A DNA stretch of 64,000 nucleotides from Leucoraja ocellata (taxonomy: Eukaryota), in the NCBI GenBank assembly GCA_036785375.1, contig JAWMAR010000361.1, positions 620,001-684,000 of the forward strand, written 5' to 3'. Below are positions 1 through 63,200 of this stretch, piece by piece (within the stretch, counting starts at the first letter, position 1; every line of letters starts with the position of its first letter). A program made the position numbers.

Positions 1-3000
1 GCAGCGGCTAATTAAATTTCCCATTACAGTTCCACACTTGTGTGAACCAAACTCATTTCAAACTTAAGCACCAAAATGAGAGGATTCGAGGATCAGGGAA
101 AAACATTCATTCAATTCCCATAAGATATTTAGTGATTTTAAACATAATTGGAAACTTATTGCACAGTAAGAGCTTTGCACTTTACATAAACAGAATACTA
201 AGTGGTCCAATGTGTGAAGATATCCCTGAACATTAGTGAAGTCCCTTGGGCCTAGTTCATGACGAAGCCATTGGCATCAAGCAAGTTTAATATAAATGCC
301 ACAATGGGGGAACTGACTGGCACAGCAGGCGAAGGCTCTCATTGTTATTTCCTTTCTCTGGTTCCACAATTCGCAGCTCTGTCTCACACCTTCTGCTTTT
401 ATCTCTGGTCTTTGTTGCAATCACCTGCCTAACATCCTCCCCCTTGCCTATGTCCACCTATTACCTGCCACATTTTGTCCTCCCACTCGCCGGATGATGA
501 AGCTCTGGCGTCGGGAGAACGCTCTGCAGCGGCTTGGATGACTGGAACGGCCGCTTCCTCCCCGGAGACCGAGGAATGCACACCTTTGGCCGCTTTCAAC
601 TTGGTGCTTGGGTTCAGATTGCCCAGTAACCTATGGCTTGTGTGGGAAAATGATGGTGTGCATCCCTCGGGACAGCCCCCACTCTCCCACGGCCACCCTC
701 CGCGGGCTGCGGGTCGGGTGGAGCGGAGGTTTGGGACAATGTTCATGCCTTCACAGTGATGTGATGGATTCGGGGGTCTGGACCAATCGCTAACAAGTCC
801 CGCCCCCCGGCAACGTCATGTCCGTTATTGGACTTTTCTGTTGAGCGGCAGTCGGTCCCTTGGCTTGTAGGCGACTCCAACTTTCAGGTAGGTGGCGTTT
901 CGACAGAGCGGCCATTCGGTGAGTTTGCTTTTAGGCGACTCCAACTTTCAGGTAGGTGGCGTTTCGACACGTTTAGGCGTCCCATCCTTTCGGTTAGTAG
1001 GCGTTTCGTCTTCGGACGCTTTCGGCTTATTGGCGTTTCGGCCTCGTTTCCATTCTTGTATGTCGGTGCCACGTCCGGGTACCGTTGGGTTTGACAAGTT
1101 GAGCTGTGGGCAGGCTGACAGGTGCAATGGCCAAGACTATCAGGAGATTATGGGACTGTTGTCCACAATTTACCATTCATTAATCCAACTGCCTAGTGCA
1201 AGCCAGGCACCCCACACCTGCATTCCATTACGTGTGGCTACAAGGTGCCTCTTCCTCCTAGCAGTAGTTATTAGGAAATAGACCACCATCTTCACGAGAA
1301 CAGGAATTATTGCTCCTGGAGTCTACAAAGGGAATAGAAACAGCATCTCATTGTAACAGGAGCAGTCCTTTACTCGTATGTTAACAATATCTCAAATATG
1401 TTACATTTTCAAAGTGAAACTTTACAGAGAGTTAAAAGGCATTGAAAGACATACTTGATATATTTGACATTCGAAGTATGTATGAAAATTGATGTTTTCC
1501 GGAATGAAATGTGATTTCTTGTTTGAATTGAACCACTCGGGAAATTCACGCAGGAATTTCCAGTCATGAGTTGTATTTCTGTGAATGAGTTGTTTTGTAT
1601 GTTGGGCGCTCAGTAATTATGCCATTTGGTATTCAAAGCTTATTCAGAGCTATGGTGGGTAACATTAGATGATATTGTTGTAAAGGAGCATCTGTCATTG
1701 TGTGCAGGAAGGAACTGCAGATGCTGGTTTACACCGAAGATCGACACAACATACTGGAGTAAACTAGTGGGACAGGCAGCATCTCTTGGTGACGTGTGAA
1801 GAAGGGTCTTGACCCGAAACATCACCCATTCCTTCTATCCGGTGATGCTGCCTGTCCCACTATGTTACTCCAACACTTTGTCATTTTGTGCAAATGGGAA
1901 GTGCTGAGGCCACCACACAGCACCCACAACCTGGGCTCACTGTTAACTTCCAGTGCTATCTATGTGGAGCCTGCATGTGCTCTCTGCGACTGTGTGGATA
2001 TCTCCCCACTACCCCCCTCCCCTCCACCTCTCGAAGTGCTTGGGTTCCCTTCCAGATCCAAAGACATGCCAGTAGGTCATTACTGCTGTAAATCGCAGCT
2101 TAGTTGGGAAACAGCTCCTGCTAAGGAAATTGTAGAGAGTAGTGGATGTAGCCCATCAGACTCCTCACTGTGAACCCCATATTCACTTCATGCCACCTCA
2201 TGAAAGCAGCCAACATTCTTGCCCTCAGTTATCAGACTTCTGAATGAATCTTTCATAAGTTAGGGTACAGTCCTAATTTTTCAAACTACCTTATAGCAGA
2301 TCTTGGACTTTTTCTCTGGAACTGTTACGCTACAATACCGAATAACTATATTCTGGACTTTGGTACTTTTCTCTTTGCTCGGCCTGAACTGAGTTTGGCA
2401 TGATTGTACTATAGAAACAAAGAAAACAGGAGCAGGAGTAGGCCATTTGGCCCTTCGATCATCCAAAATCTGTGCCCCATTCCTGCTTTCTCCCCATATC
2501 CCTTGATTCTGTTAGCCCTAAGAGCTACATCTACCTCCCTCTAAAAAACATCAGTGAATTGGCCTCCACTGCCGTATGTGGCAGAGAATGTTACAGATTC
2601 ACAACTCTCTGGGTGAAAAAGCTTTTCCTCATCTCAGTCCTAAATGGCCTACCCCTTATTCTTAAACTGTGACCCCCTGATTCTGGACTCCCCCAACATC
2701 GGGAACATTTTACCTGCGTCTATTATCTGAGGAAAGATGTGCTGGCACTGGGGAGGGTCCAGGAGATAAAGATCCCTGGGATAATTGGGTCAACATACCT
2801 AGACAACAGTGAATTTATGGAATAAATTGCTGCAGACGGCTGTGGAGGTTGTGAGGTCAAACATAGAAACATAGAAATTAGGTGCAGGAGTAGGCCATTC
2901 GGCCCTTCGAGCCTGCACCGCCATTCAATATGATCATGGCTGATCATCCAACTCAGTATCCCGTACCTGCCTTCTCTCCATACCCTCTGATCCCCTTAGC

Positions 3001-60200: not shown

Positions 60201-63200
60201 AAATAGGAATTAAAATTAAAAAATACATGTCATGAACAAATTTAACACTCTACTAAACATTCAACAGCCGTTCCGACCGGCAGCGGCACAACAGTGGCTC
60301 TGCTGCAGTGTGGGGGTTTGTGCGCGATACTTGGCAGGGGGCAAAGTCCATTTAACAGTGTTATAGCCTGTGGGAAGAAGCTGAGGAGCATCCTGCTGGT
60401 TTTGCAGCTAATGCTCCTGTACCTCTTCCCAGATGGGAGGATGGAGAAAATGTCATGCGATGGGTGGTAAGGGTCTTTGATGATGGAGATGGCTCTGTTG
60501 ATACATCTCTTCTTGTATATGTCCAGCAGGAAGGGGAGTGGAGCACCAATAATCCTGCTTGCGGTCTTCACTATCCTGTCCAGTTGGTGCCGTTCGTACG
60601 CCTTGCAGCTCCCGAACCAGGAAGTGATGCCGTATGTCAGTGTGCTCTCGACAGTCCCCCTATAAAAAGTCCGTAGGTGTGTGGTGGGGAGGCCTGCTTT
60701 ACGTAGTCTTCGGAGAGGGTGAAGTCGCTGCTGGGCTCTCTTGACCAGAGCTTAAAGGGAATTTGTAGTGTAAGTTGTTTCCAAACAGAGGGCAGTGGGT
60801 GCCTGAAATGTTCTGCCTGGACCAGTGGTGGAGGAAGTCACTCTTGTGGGTTTTTAGAGGCTTTTAGATCAGCACGTGAATATTCAGGGAATAGTGGGAT
60901 ATGGATCATATGAGGCAGAGGAAAGGAGATTCCTTTAGCTTGGAATTGTATTCGGCACAGACCTTGTGGGTTAAAGGAGCTGTTCTTCAACTATGTTCTA
61001 AGCATGTAAATCAGACCAGAATGTCCTAATGTTTTATTACGCTGTCATTTACCCAAAATCATTATGTGGATCACCTTCCCTTTTTCATGTTTGCTCCTTT
61101 ACTTTGACAGAATCTTAAAACTCAAGTATGATAGCAGATAACAGCTGCTACTGGATTGTCTCTGAGCTTTTATCTATTCCTTCTGCCACTGAACAGTTTT
61201 CAGTGAAACGTATTTCAATAAAATGGACACTAAATGCTGGAGTAACTCAGTGGGACAGGCAGCATCTCTGGATAGAAGGAATGGGTGACGTTACAGTTCG
61301 ACCCGAAACGTCACCCATTCCTTCTCTCCAGTGATGCTGCCTGTCCCGCTGAGTTACTCCAGCATTTTGTGTCTATCTTTGGTTTAAACCAGCATCTGCA
61401 GTTCCTTCCTACAGTATTTAAATAAGGTTGGAAAAAGAGTTGGACAATTCAAATGAATCAATTTGGATAAATGCTGATGTAACGTTGTTTCACACCTCAC
61501 AGGTTTCCGCAATGTGAGAATATTATCACAGGTAAAACATGACGCTGACACGAGAGGCTTGTGTGTGAAGGATGGCAGCTGTCCCTTGATGGTACAGTAA
61601 ATATGATGATCCCATTAGCACAGTTATTGCACTAAATACCATCCAGCTGCTCAGTAAATCGTTACAACAGTGGCTAAAAACATATTCATATCCAGGGAAT
61701 AAAAACATGAAATGCCAACAAGGGAAGAACTGAATCAAAAATATAATGCTTTAAAATGTGTTTCACGACTACAAAGTGGCAAAGTGGTGGAGCCTTTGTT
61801 TTACAGTGCAAAAGACCTGGGTTTGATCCTGTCTGTGTAGAGTGTGCACGCTCTCACTGTGACTACAATGGGTTTCTCCTGGTGCTCCGATTTCCTCCCA
61901 CATTCCAATGTTCCGGTTTGTAGGTTAATTGGCCTCTGTAAATTGCCTCAGGTGTGTAAGAGGTGGATGTGAAGGTAGGGTAACTGAACTAGTGTGAGCG
62001 GGTGATCGATGGTCAGCATGGAGTCGATGGACCAAAGGGCCTCTTTCCTGTATTAATAAACTAAACTAATACTGCCTTTCAAAATTCAGTTTTTTAAAGT
62101 CTCTCATATCCTGAATAGCTCAGCAAGGTACTTCATTTGTCTGCTCTCTTTGTAACTAGATTGGAACTAGGCAGCACAATGGCATAATGGTAGAGCTGTT
62201 GACTTAAAGTGCCAGAGACTCAGGTTCGATCCTGACTACAGTTCAGTCTGTCCAGAGTTTGTACGTTCTCCCTGTGACAGTGTGGGGTTTTTTACGGGTG
62301 TTCCGGTTTCCTCCCACACTCTAAAATACAGACTTGTAGGTTAATTGGCTTTGGTAAAATTGTAAATTGTCCCTGGTGTGTTGGATAGTGCTAGTGTACG
62401 GGGTGATCGCTGGTCGGCAAGGTCTCGGTGAGCAGAAGGACCTGTTTTCGTGCAATATTTCTAATGTCTAAAGTCTAAAAGTGCTTTGCCCTGACCGACT
62501 GCATTAGTCGTTGCTGCAAAGTTGATAATTTTGTCGATTGGTAATTCTTGAAGCAGTTATGAGCGCCATGTGTCATGTGTGCTAATGAGGGCTCGTTCCT
62601 TACCAGTACCAATGGATGAGTGAACGGGATGGAGACACAAGGATGTGGAGTACAAGCGCTTCAAGAAAGTCACGCACATTCCTTCCACTCGCATCGGACT
62701 TGATCCAATGTGCCCTTAACTTAGCAAAGATACTGTACTTCAACAAATGAACAGGAAAGTTACCTGCAGATTTCTTGGGGGCTTCCGAATGTTGAACATG
62801 AGGGAGAAACTGTTCTTTCAGTGCCTTTACTTTTCGCCTTGTTAATGCACGCTAGCTTGCTCAGTCACCACAGTGACTTTTCTTTCAAGATACTGGGAAA
62901 CTGTAGTGCTCGTTCAACCCTGAGAACGATTCACTTGTTACACATACCTTCCTCACCAAGGCAACGTGGGAATGGCTTCCATCATCCTGCCCATTGTTTT
63001 ACTATTAACCCCGGTCTTTTTGTTCTCCCACTAATAAGGGTTAATAGTGTCGATAGGGATAGTTGGTTTTTTATTCAAAATCAAGAGCTAACCAGATGTT
63101 CCTGCTTACATGGAAATGTTGTGACTGTGTGACAAGGCTGTGCGCCCTCAGTCCATCACTTGTTCCTTTATCGCTGCGAGCCTGCCATTGTATGGCCTGT

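What the first reader, a model, noticed from the sequence alone, without database searches (positions are those of the whole stretch)
1693..61425. Family of ORF-less PLE fold-backs and solo tails with 11-16 bp TSDs and 3' microhomology to the target
Seen: TSD pairs at 1693/1879, 8427/8566, 34033/34169, 47432/47533, 55203/55485, 59144/59670 and 61210/61414. The element 3' end usually overlaps the TSD (CTTAAA at 55485, AACAC at 59151-59155, CTATCT at 47533, CACA at 34171), and 3' end points vary. Several solo copies start right at the CUGAAGA box (34044, 47441, about 23758 and 29695). Inference: integration is primed by base-pairing of nicked DNA to internal RNA positions, and the ribozyme region marks the preferred 5' boundary. 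Starts upstream of the cleavage triplet, rather than after it, are unexpected if cleaved RNA is the template.
[Added by the scan's program, not by the reader: the finding's places include an assembly gap (unread letters, written N; its length is only estimated) at 6164 to 6438, 17913 to 18079, 40840 to 41010, 41113 to 41262. Whether the letters on both sides are continuous or in frame is not known: test that first.]
Basis: partly seen in the sequence, partly recalled or inferred. Interest (0 to 1): 0.65.

Follow-up and report, generated by a model that had tools for sequence, protein, structure and literature searches.

The report
Truncated Penelope retrotransposon tails in a skate-like genome
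The hairpins and short repeats are broken-off 3' ends of a Penelope-like retrotransposon, inserted singly or as head-to-head pairs; this architecture is already described for these elements, so the family is ordinary apart from a small excess of target-element sequence overlap at the junctions.

Summary
A 128-position profile finds 42 matches (38 arms) of one repeat in the 64 kb. Four copies run upstream into a GIY-YIG endonuclease ORF end. That ORF's closest relatives are skate and ray proteins.

All seven listed TSD pairs stand out against random windows. They are the only 7 of 26 events that do.

The "variable" 3' ends are bimodal: 15 arms end at ...CCTTCCT+ACA(C), and 9 end about 34-38 nt upstream. 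This is the published PLE "tail", that is, two internal reverse-transcription start sites (PMC11167929, PMC8557442, PMC3846280). No fold-back carries the tail on both arms.

The consensus holds a minimal dimer-type hammerhead (PMC4209133). Only 1 of 18 copies keeps the core, and Rfam finds nothing.

TSD/element overlap at 11 junctions sums to 23 nt. A cross-pair control gives a mean of 0.36 nt per junction, about 4 nt for 11. The result is robust at the proximal site and partly circular at the distal site.

5' ends cluster in the ribozyme, never just after the cleavage site.

Verdict: a new member of a known kind.

The parts
1693..1892 (.). A-type head-to-head fold-back. TSD 1693-1706 / 1879-1892. 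The left arm (-) ends at the distal site (1706). The right arm (+) 1797-1881 ends at profile position 87.
   Evidence: p 0.0025; 38-nt arms, 84% complementary
8427..8579 (.). B-type fold-back without the ribozyme region; the arms meet at profile positions 47/49 with a 3-nt loop. TSD 8427-8440 / 8566-8579. The left arm ends at the proximal site and the right arm at the distal site.
   Evidence: 0 of 2000 random windows; 44-nt arms, 98% complementary
34033..34179 (+). A-type solo tail 34044-34168, running from the CUGAAGA box to the distal end. TSD 34033-34043 / 34169-34179.
   Evidence: p 0.048
47432..47544 (+). A-type solo tail 47441 to about 47534, running from the box to the proximal 3' site. 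TSD 47432-47443 / 47533-47544; its last 3 nt overlap the box.
   Evidence: (p 0.015)
55199..55500 (.). B-type fold-back. Left arm (-) 55219-55304 ends at the proximal site. A 33-nt unit is repeated 3.1 times at 55301-55403. The right arm (+) runs to the distal site. TSD 55203-55218 / 55485-55500, with a 6-nt overlap with the element end.
   Evidence: p 0.0015; 81-nt arms, 94% complementary
59134..59699 (-). 5'-truncated B-type copy 59156-59669 with an ORF. It contains the GIY-YIG ORF end (IYIGET... to the stop at about 59415), a C-rich spacer, the box at 59275-59281 and a distal 3' end. There are two alternative 12-nt direct repeats.
   Evidence: (p 0.003)
61210..61425 (.). A-type fold-back. 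Left arm (-) 61222-61304 ends at the proximal site; right arm (+) 61297-61413 ends at the distal site. TSD 61210-61221 / 61414-61425.
   Evidence: p 0.008; 80-nt arms, 89% complementary
43233..44349 (-). Longest PLE remnant in the window. It has an RT-end piece (44152-44349), a CX4CxxC linker motif, a GIY-YIG ORF (43429-43878) and a tail 43330-43233 ending at the proximal site. It is the only copy with an intact hammerhead core.
   Evidence: (GIY-YIG E 0.0011, below cut-off)
18146..18638 (+). 5'-truncated copy with an ORF-end remnant and a full tail. The 5' limit is not counted because a gap ends at 18079.
41552..42074 (+). 5'-truncated copy with an ORF-end remnant. The tail ends at profile position 86.
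20638..20812 (.). A-type fold-back with no detectable TSD. The left arm is full length (positions 2-126); the right arm covers about 22-73.
   Evidence: p 0.31; no inverted pair found
25148..25343 (.). B-type fold-back with a 34-nt unit repeated 2.1 times and no TSD.
54382..54555 (.). B-type copy (-) with a 33-nt unit repeated 2.1 times and a 19-nt inverted piece at its 5' end. It ends at the distal 3' site and has no TSD.
54804..55013 (.). A-type fold-back. The left arm covers positions 9-70; the right arm runs from the box to the distal end. No TSD.
59707..59909 (.). A-type fold-back whose arms meet about 23 nt upstream of the box. No TSD.

Best explanation
These are dead insertions of the 3'-terminal (pseudo-LTR) segment of a canonical endonuclease-bearing Penelope-like element (PLE). 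There are two subfamilies, A and B, in a skate- or ray-like genome.

Shown:
- The repeat sits directly downstream of a GIY-YIG ORF end in four copies.
- Its consensus carries a minimal, dimer-type hammerhead motif.
- Its 3' ends fall at two discrete sites about 34-38 nt apart.
- Insertions occur as solos or as head-to-head inverted pairs, and no pair carries the extra 34 nt on both arms.
- Intact insertions have TSDs of 11-16 (up to 20) nt.

Inferred from published PLE enzymology (PMC11167929):
- The element's protein cuts both target strands with a stagger of about 11-16 nt.
- Each 3'-OH primes reverse transcription at one of two internal start sites on uncleaved RNA.
- Synthesis mostly stops within about 130 nt, in or just past the ribozyme region.
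- When both strands are extended, the two cDNAs are joined by a template jump, giving a fold-back. When only one is extended, the result is a solo tail.

Short target-RNA overlaps (0-6 nt) are commoner than chance and probably stabilise the primer on the template, but they are not required.

The hairpins are a by-product of integration. Nothing here suggests a host function.
For: Family: 42 nhmmer matches, which make 38 arms once 4 internal tandem units are set aside.

Link to an ORF: 43330-, 59281-, 18513+ and 41989+ continue upstream into homologous ORF ends. GIY-YIG scores E 0.0011. I read the CCHH-in-GIY-YIG and CX4CxxC motifs directly; Craig 2021 (PMC8557442, passages) names them as PLE features. 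Relatives are annotated skate and ray proteins, and the feature-nearest Atlas clusters carry HTH_animal, GIY-YIG and some RVT_1.

Hammerhead: the consensus CUGAAGA-A-GGGUCUCGACCC-GAAA-CG-UC meets the four traits of the min-HHR of Cervera & de la Pena 2014 (PMC4209133, passages). A dimer fold of the intact copy pairs AACGUU between strands and keeps helix II.

Two 3' sites: 15 of 38 arms end at the distal site and 9 of 38 at profile positions 93-100. For 9 of 23 non-distal ends in an 8-position bin the binomial P is 1.3e-4, with the bin chosen after seeing the data.

One tail only: all 4 TSD-flanked fold-backs have one distal and one proximal or near-proximal end. 0 of 9 fold-backs have two distal ends.

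TSDs: 7 of 26 events at p<0.05.

Overlap: k = 1, 3, 2, 1, 6, 1, 0, 2, 0, 2, 5.

Literature match: inverted 5'-truncated copies, a 30-40-bp tail at one end and short TSDs (PMC8557442 and PMC3846280, passages); both strands cut and extended, two internal RT start sites bounding the tail, and ribozyme cleavage not needed (PMC11167929, main text).
Against: - The window holds no PLE reverse-transcriptase domain. There is only a short remnant with a Y-I-V-D motif that no profile confirmed.
- GIY-YIG scores below Pfam's cut-off (19.7 against 22.6 bits).
- Rfam finds no hammerhead even at E<=10, and 17 of 18 copies have lost the strict core.
- 19 of 26 events show no TSD, so the clean picture rests on seven insertions.
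- 14 of 38 arms end at neither 3' site.
- Arm starts are nearly symmetric in 5 of 9 fold-backs, with 0-11 nt between the arms. That fits self-priming at least as well as two independent cDNAs.
- A 33-nt duplication occurs in 3 of 3 B fold-backs that cover that region and in 0 of 3 non-fold-back B copies. The two-strand model does not predict this.
- The tail region shows no RNA structure beyond shuffles (7 folds, z from -0.85 to +1.71), so I could not find the stem-loop reported at the anole start site.
Confidence: 0.72

Rival explanations
1. Self-priming (snap-back). A single cDNA primed from one nick folds back on itself, or switches to the nascent cDNA, near the ribozyme's palindromic helix II / ACGU region and copies itself. 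This makes a head-to-head inverted repeat. The shorter arm then marks where this second synthesis was joined to the other target end, not a second RT start.
For: Arm starts are nearly symmetric and the loops tiny in FB8427 (47/49, 3 nt), FB55203 (8/10, 3 nt), FB25148 (7/10, 4 nt), FB54382 (8/10, 7 nt) and FB59707 (-23/-23, 11 nt). Three further 'solos' carry inverted pieces of only 11-14 nt at their 5' end (3587-, 36681+, 52919+; E 0.002-0.024). Arkhipova et al. 2013 (PMC3846280, passage) interpret palindromes at PLE inverted junctions as self-priming.
Against: - The same paper notes that self-priming on a sense template should give tail-to-tail pairs, not head-to-head ones.
- FB1693 (25/3), FB20638 (2/22) and FB54823 (9/-2) are asymmetric.
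- In FB55203 and FB25148 each arm has its own complete helix II, so the turn is not inside that hairpin.
- Solos also end at the proximal site, including one with a TSD (47441) and one linked to an ORF (43233). That site is therefore a start site in its own right.
Confidence: 0.15
2. At least the B-type fold-back is itself a propagating non-autonomous unit. A hairpin-shaped RNA would be copied in trans by the PLE enzyme from its right-hand start site, with 5' truncation shortening the left arm.
For: Three B fold-backs at separate loci share the same odd centre: an inverted arm ending ...CCCTT, 1-2 nt, then a 33-34-nt unit (profile positions 9-41) repeated 2.1, 2.1 and 3.1 times. This duplication is in 3 of 3 such fold-backs and 0 of 3 non-fold-back B copies. 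Their left arms have graded lengths (to positions about 31, 67 and 96), as 5' truncation would give. FB8427 and FB55203 share the same left end, to the base (...GTG(T/C)AC).
Against: - No diagnostic substitutions separate fold-back arms from the ORF-linked B copy 59281-.
- The three units in FB55203 are 100% identical while its arms are 94% complementary. This suggests local, later slippage between the two CCTT strings rather than inheritance.
- A-type fold-backs all have different junctions.
- The sample is only 3-4 loci.
Confidence: 0.1
3. The fold-backs are MITEs or Foldback-type DNA transposons with terminal inverted repeats, unrelated to retrotransposition.
For: The shape is a hairpin flanked by direct repeats. 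Rfam's only sub-threshold matches are hairpin families such as miRNA precursors and the psbJ 3'UTR.
Against: - TSD length varies from 11 to 16 (or 20) nt.
- The two ends are not inverted copies of each other, because one arm is about 34 nt longer.
- The same sequence occurs singly and as the 3' end of GIY-YIG ORF-bearing copies.
Confidence: 0.02

Closest known systems
[quoted passage not shown]
   Same: - A GIY-YIG endonuclease ORF end with Cys pairs inside the GIY-YIG core and a CX4CxxC linker motif.
- A ribozyme motif in the terminal repeat.
- Heavy 5' truncation.
- A head-to-head inverted copy.
- A 30-40-bp tail on one end only.
- Short TSDs of variable length (PMC8557442 and PMC3846280, passages).
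   Different: Here most copies are reduced to 130 nt or less with no ORF. TSDs are somewhat longer (11-16 nt) than the 8-10 bp quoted for rotifer copies. The window holds no full-length copy or RT, so I did not test clade placement.
PAc (Poseidon of Anolis carolinensis) in-vitro system, Frangieh et al. 2024 (PMC11167929)
   Same: Two internal RT start sites bound the tail. Both target strands are used. The ribozyme lies about 100 nt upstream of the start sites. Cleaved RNA is not the template.
   Different: In vitro the start site had no homology to the cut DNA. Here 9 of 11 junctions show at least 1 nt and 6 of 11 at least 2 nt of overlap. I found no significant stem-loop at the start sites. 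The targets here show no clear ATT or AT-rich rule (7 sites, by eye only).
Minimal PLE hammerheads (min-HHR), Cervera & de la Pena 2014 (PMC4209133)
   Same: [quoted passage not shown]
   Different: Helix I is at most 2 bp. Activity is untested. The genomic copies have decayed, mostly at CpG sites.
L1 twin priming and 5' inversion
   Same: It works in a similar way: both nicked strands prime cDNA, and the products are joined with short microhomology into an inverted structure flanked by a TSD.
   Different: L1 twin priming inverts a different part of one RNA. Here both arms are the same 3' segment, so two start events on equivalent sites (two RNAs, or two repeats of one RNA) are needed. This is a resemblance recalled from general knowledge, not a test.
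Animal non-LTR retrozymes (bioRxiv 10.64898/2026.07.22.740005; abstract and passages read)
   Same: They are ORF-less, hammerhead-bearing derivatives of PLE terminal repeats, and they are reported in the one cartilaginous-fish genome sampled.
   Different: Retrozymes are head-to-tail tandem arrays of whole units. Here the copies are solos and inverted pairs, and the only tandem arrays (33-nt units) lack the CUGAAGA box.

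Membership tests
Penelope-like element (canonical EN+) | C-terminal GIY-YIG endonuclease with a CCHH motif (two Cys inside the GIY-YIG core) | tested here: met
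   The ORF 43429-43878(-) reads ...LIYCIRCSRCQLLYIGQSKRRLGDRFARH..., and 59415-59699(-) reads ...IYIGETKRRLGDRFAKH.... Pfam GIY-YIG scores E 0.0011 at 19.7 bits, below the 22.6 cut-off. Three homologues score E 0.0005-0.002. The motif definition comes from PMC8557442 (passage).
Penelope-like element (canonical EN+) | PLE-type (telomerase-related) reverse transcriptase in the same ORF | tested here: inconclusive
   Only a 66-aa piece (44152-44349, -) with a ...YIVDCIG... motif lies upstream, in a shifted frame, and no profile confirmed it. Among the feature-nearest Atlas clusters of the homologue P0004, one carries RVT_1 in 13% of its members. There is no full-length copy in the window.
Penelope-like element (canonical EN+) | Insertion signature: pseudo-LTR copies in inverted or tandem order, with a 30-40-bp tail at one end only | tested here: met
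   There are 9 fold-backs. The 3' ends fall at two sites about 34-38 nt apart (15 and 9 of 38 arms). 0 of 9 fold-backs have the tail on both arms.
Penelope-like element (canonical EN+) | Short target-site duplication of variable length | tested here: met
   7 of 26 events have a TSD at p<0.05, of 11-16 (or 20) nt. 19 of 26 have none detectable.
Neptune/Nematis-type PLE | CX2-5CxxC motif in the linker upstream of GIY-YIG | tested here: met
   FPCNRRKCYTC lies in the 43458-43940(-) frame. The frame is shifted relative to the EN ORF, so this copy is broken. I built no phylogeny.
Minimal PLE hammerhead (min-HHR) | Core CUGANGA / GAAA / UH, a bulged nucleotide after A9, a G10.1-C11.1 pair, a palindromic 15.2-16.2 pair, and no helix III | tested here: met
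   All of these are present in the family consensus and in copy 43330-. 17 of 18 copies have lost at least one core base. Rfam's hammerhead models give nothing at E<=10.
Minimal PLE hammerhead (min-HHR) | Self-cleavage as a dimer | not testable with these tools
   There is only a predicted dimer fold: -20.1 kcal/mol against -6.2 for the monomer, with AACGUU paired between strands.
MITE / Foldback DNA transposon | Matching terminal inverted repeats at both tips and a TSD of fixed length | tested here: not met
   One arm is about 34 nt longer, so the tips differ, and TSDs range from 11 to 16 (or 20) nt.
Non-LTR retrozyme | Head-to-tail tandem array of complete hammerhead-bearing units | tested here: not met
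   TRF finds only 33-34-nt arrays (2.1-3.1 copies) that lack the CUGAAGA box.

The most novel reading that the evidence does not exclude
The hammerhead in this family may act mainly as an RNA dimerisation module rather than as a cutter. Its palindromic helix-III bases (ACGU, or AACGUU in subfamily B) would hold two template RNAs head-to-head on a dimeric PLE enzyme. One protomer would start at the proximal site on one nicked strand and the other at the distal site on the other strand, each helped by a few bases of target-RNA pairing. The two cDNAs would meet and be joined inside the ribozyme.

This would explain four things together:
- the inverted junction falls in the ribozyme (14 of 18 arm starts at positions -2 to 25);
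- no arm starts just after the cleavage site;
- no fold-back has the tail on both arms;
- a poorly cleaving ribozyme is conserved in PLEs.

Solo tails would be the same reaction on one strand, or run-off from a transcript that begins at the box.
Probability: 0.1. Interest if true: 0.7.

Novelty: new member of a known kind. Interest (0 to 1): 0.28.

Why it matters
This window adds no new kind of element. It shows an abundant PLE-tail family (38 arms in 64 kb) in a cartilaginous-fish-like genome. Every structural peculiarity of the family matches the published PLE signature and the 2024 in-vitro mechanism.

Two points could interest PLE specialists if they hold genome-wide:
- Natural insertions show more target-element overlap at the start sites than chance. 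The in-vitro system reported none.
- cDNA ends pile up inside the ribozyme, upstream of its cleavage site.

Both can be tested cheaply on the whole assembly.

For annotation, these hairpins should be masked as PLE fragments and not called as MITEs or miRNA-like genes.

Tried and rejected
- Rfam at the gathering score gave 0 matches. At E<=10 it gave 30 matches, none a hammerhead; the hits on the fold-backs are generic hairpin families far below their cut-offs.
- The bare CTGAAGA count is 22 against 12.2 expected, and 1 of 100 shuffles reach 22. It is weak evidence on its own.
- A wide TSD search over 3 kb from 25 arm ends found no new TSD. The one p~0.05 match (54823-) is family-internal sequence.
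- RNA folds of the tail region in 7 copies gave z-scores from -0.85 to +1.71, so I claim no start-site stem-loop.
- Pfam on two LINE-like ORFs (2953-3453, 53714-54235) and on 34644-35180, 38071-38508 and 43941-44354 found no family. 60242-60751 matches ALKBH8_N.
- I looked for substitutions that separate fold-back arms from ORF-linked B copies and saw none.
- I considered snap-back priming at CCTT/AAGG as the origin of the 33-nt units. I dropped it because it predicts a right arm starting at position 42, and the observed start is 10.
- My first consensus script failed on an end motif and was repaired.
- The supplements of PMC11167929 (in-vivo junction figures S1B and S2) are closed and may bear on the microhomology question.
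- Literature searches (listings only beyond the five papers read) turned up no description of this skate family or of ORF-less PLE fold-backs as a class. Repbase and Dfam could not be consulted.

Full report
WHAT IS THERE

The window has four N runs: 6164-6438, 17913-18079, 40840-41010 and 41113-41262. None lies within any of the seven element-plus-TSD intervals, which I read as uninterrupted bases. Continuity across a gap therefore does not bear on the finding, and I filled nothing. Two longer copies start 67 nt and 290 nt to the right of a gap, so I left their 5' limits out of all counts.

BLAST from three reference arms and an iterated nhmmer profile of 128 positions show one repeat family with 42 matches. 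Four of these are internal tandem units, which leaves 38 arms. There are two subfamilies. A reads ...GTCACC(C/T)ATTCC... and ends ...CCTTCCT+ACA(C). B reads ...GTTGCCTATTTCC... and ends ...CCTTCTT+AAACAC.

IT IS A PENELOPE-LIKE ELEMENT TAIL

Four copies (43330-, 59281-, 18513+, 41989+) continue upstream of the CUGAAGA box into mutually homologous sequence. In two of them this translates as the end of a GIY-YIG endonuclease ORF.
- Pfam gives GIY-YIG at E 0.0011, below its cut-off.
[quoted passage not shown] Craig et al. 2021 name both as PLE endonuclease features (PMC8557442, passages).
- The closest proteins are annotated skate and ray records, the best being 75% identical over 74% of the query.
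- The feature-nearest Atlas clusters carry HTH_animal and GIY-YIG, and one carries RVT_1 in 13% of members. This is a lead, not a proof.
- No reverse-transcriptase domain is present in the window apart from a 66-aa remnant. That membership feature stays inconclusive.

THE RIBOZYME

Rfam finds no hammerhead at gathering score or at E<=10. The family consensus nonetheless reads CUGAAGA-A-GGGUCUCGACCC-GAAA-CG-UC. This has the core boxes plus the four traits that Cervera & de la Pena 2014 list for the minimal, dimer-acting hammerheads of PLEs: an extra base after A9, a G10.1-C11.1 pair, a palindromic 15.2-16.2 pair and no helix III (PMC4209133, passages).

Helix II changes between subfamilies (GGGU-CUCG-ACCC against GGGU-UUCG-GCCC) keep the pairing, but only through one-sided changes. 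A cofold of the one intact copy pairs AACGUU between two strands and keeps helix II.

Only 1 of the 18 copies that reach the box keeps the strict core. The losses are mostly CpG-type changes, as expected for dead copies. Cleavage activity is untested.

TSDs

I scanned 26 events with two defined ends, each against 2000 random windows. Exactly the seven listed pairs were singled out at p<0.05 and 19 were not. A 3-kb search from 25 arm ends added none. Lengths are 11-16 nt (20 with one mismatch at 55199), and five of the seven have one mismatch.

The 59144 locus has two alternative perfect 12-mers.

3' ENDS

The ends are bimodal rather than freely variable.
- 15 of 38 arms end at the distal site.
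- 9 of 38 end at positions 93-100. One of these, 8422, I corrected by eye because its alignment ran into the TSD.
- 14 of 38 end elsewhere.

For 9 of 23 non-distal ends in an 8-position bin, P is 1.3e-4, with the bin chosen after looking at the data.

[quoted passage not shown] In all 4 TSD-flanked fold-backs one arm ends at the distal site and the other at or near the proximal one. None of the 9 fold-backs has two distal ends.

FOLD-BACKS

8 of 9 regions gave inverted arms of 19-81 nt at 81-98% complementarity. The ninth shows both arms only with nhmmer. All are head-to-head. Three more "solos" carry an inverted scrap of 11-14 nt at their 5' end.

5' ENDS

As I read, the 18 fold-back arm starts are at positions 25/3, 47/49, 2/22, 7/10, 8/10, 9/-2, 8/10, -23/-23 and 24/14. 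That puts 14 of 18 within -2 to 25, which is inside the ribozyme. The two solos with TSDs start at positions 1-5. None starts at position 30, the first base after the cleavage site. Seven copies run further upstream.

It agrees with Frangieh et al., who found that ribozyme mutants did not change insertion, that uncleaved RNA is the main substrate, and that no RNA-seq reads start at the cut site.

MICROHOMOLOGY

For each of the 11 junctions of the seven TSD-flanked events, I counted the consecutive bases at the element-side end of the TSD that are the same in both TSD copies and in the subfamily consensus continued past the junction.
- The counts are k = 1, 3, 2, 1, 6, 1, 0, 2, 0, 2, 5, which sum to 23. 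Nine of 11 are at least 1.
- Pairing each consensus continuation with the TSDs of other loci gives a mean of 0.363 (102 pairs).
- 0 of 200,000 resampled sums reach 23.

The result needs splitting.
- The five proximal-site junctions, where read-through copies define the consensus independently, sum to 9 (P about 5e-4).
- The three A-type distal junctions give 1, 0, 0, which is not significant.
- The three B-type distal junctions give 2, 6, 5, but the B end was defined from four copies that include these three. A target preference for ...AAAC/ACAC cannot be separated from pairing there.

MECHANISM

The best-supported account is the published one: staggered cuts on both strands, internal starts at two sites, early termination, and joining of two cDNAs into a head-to-head pair. 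The cuts, the starts and the joining are inferred here, not shown. Rivals are self-priming and, for the B fold-backs, a propagating fold-back master. The master idea is suggested by a shared 33-nt duplication of positions 9-41 in 3 of 3 such loci and 0 of 3 other B copies. A DNA-transposon (MITE) reading fails on unequal arms and variable TSD length.

LIMITS

This is a single 64-kb window with seven clean insertions and no eukaryotic genome collection. The paper supplements were closed and Repbase and Dfam were unavailable. Four literature searches found no description of this particular family.

Noticed in passing
7407-7568, 26562-26733, 27789-27949, 46070-46218, 48662-48820, 62202-62364 and eight more places: A second abundant repeat of about 160 nt has 14 matches at 73-86% identity to 44330-44490. 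It also sits at the 5' edge of the PLE remnant at 43233-44349. It is probably a SINE-like family.
   Followed up: no
2953-3453(-), 53714-54235(+), 60242-60751(-), 59039-59150(-): These are LINE-like ORF ends (...LEYCVQFWSP..., ...SIIKDPHHPGH...). 60242-60751 matches Pfam ALKBH8_N at E 2e-10. The PLE copy at 59144 is inserted into one of them.
   Followed up: partly
25205-25277, 54465-54533, 55301-55403: Tandem arrays of 33-34 nt (2.1, 2.1 and 3.1 copies, the last 100% identical) cover helix II through ...CCTT of the B tail. They occur only in B fold-backs. The unit ends coincide with two CCTT strings.
   Followed up: partly
18639-18650 and 5368-5379: Two A copies share 12 nt (ACATTTTGTCTG) beyond the canonical ...TACA(C) end and then diverge. 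This may be a third, more distal start site, or it may show what the template reads past the distal site. The string resembles the proximal-site sequence CATTTTGTGTCT.
   Followed up: no
40810-41349: The gaps at 40840-41010 and 41113-41262 lie inside a G-rich 8-nt array of GGGGGAGA-like units. These gaps reflect a simple-repeat array, not the PLE family.
   Followed up: no
59660-59710 and 59130-59160: Beside the 12-nt TSD of the 59144 copy there is a second 12-16-nt direct repeat (CGATGATGGACT...). The target either carried a 28-nt tandem duplication or the 5' junction holds about 18 nt of target-derived filler. The next fold-back (59707-59909) starts immediately beside it.
   Followed up: partly
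59157-59240(-), 8486-8565(+): In B-type tails an ATG at profile position 51 opens a frame that stays open to the 3' end. In the anole and rotifer elements the terminal repeat and tail encode the first residues of the ORF. A-type tails have a stop in that frame.
   Followed up: no
11722-11880; 56905-57013; 36332-36569: Other tandem arrays are present: 17 nt x 9.4 copies (96% matches), 37 nt x 2.9 copies, and 108 nt x 2.2 copies of G/A-rich sequence.
   Followed up: no
59289-59323 and 43893-43920: There are long homopolymer runs (35 and 28 nt of G on the + strand, so C in the element). One lies between the ORF stop and the ribozyme box in the 59144 copy. The other lies inside the 43233 remnant, where it reads as a proline run.
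   Followed up: no
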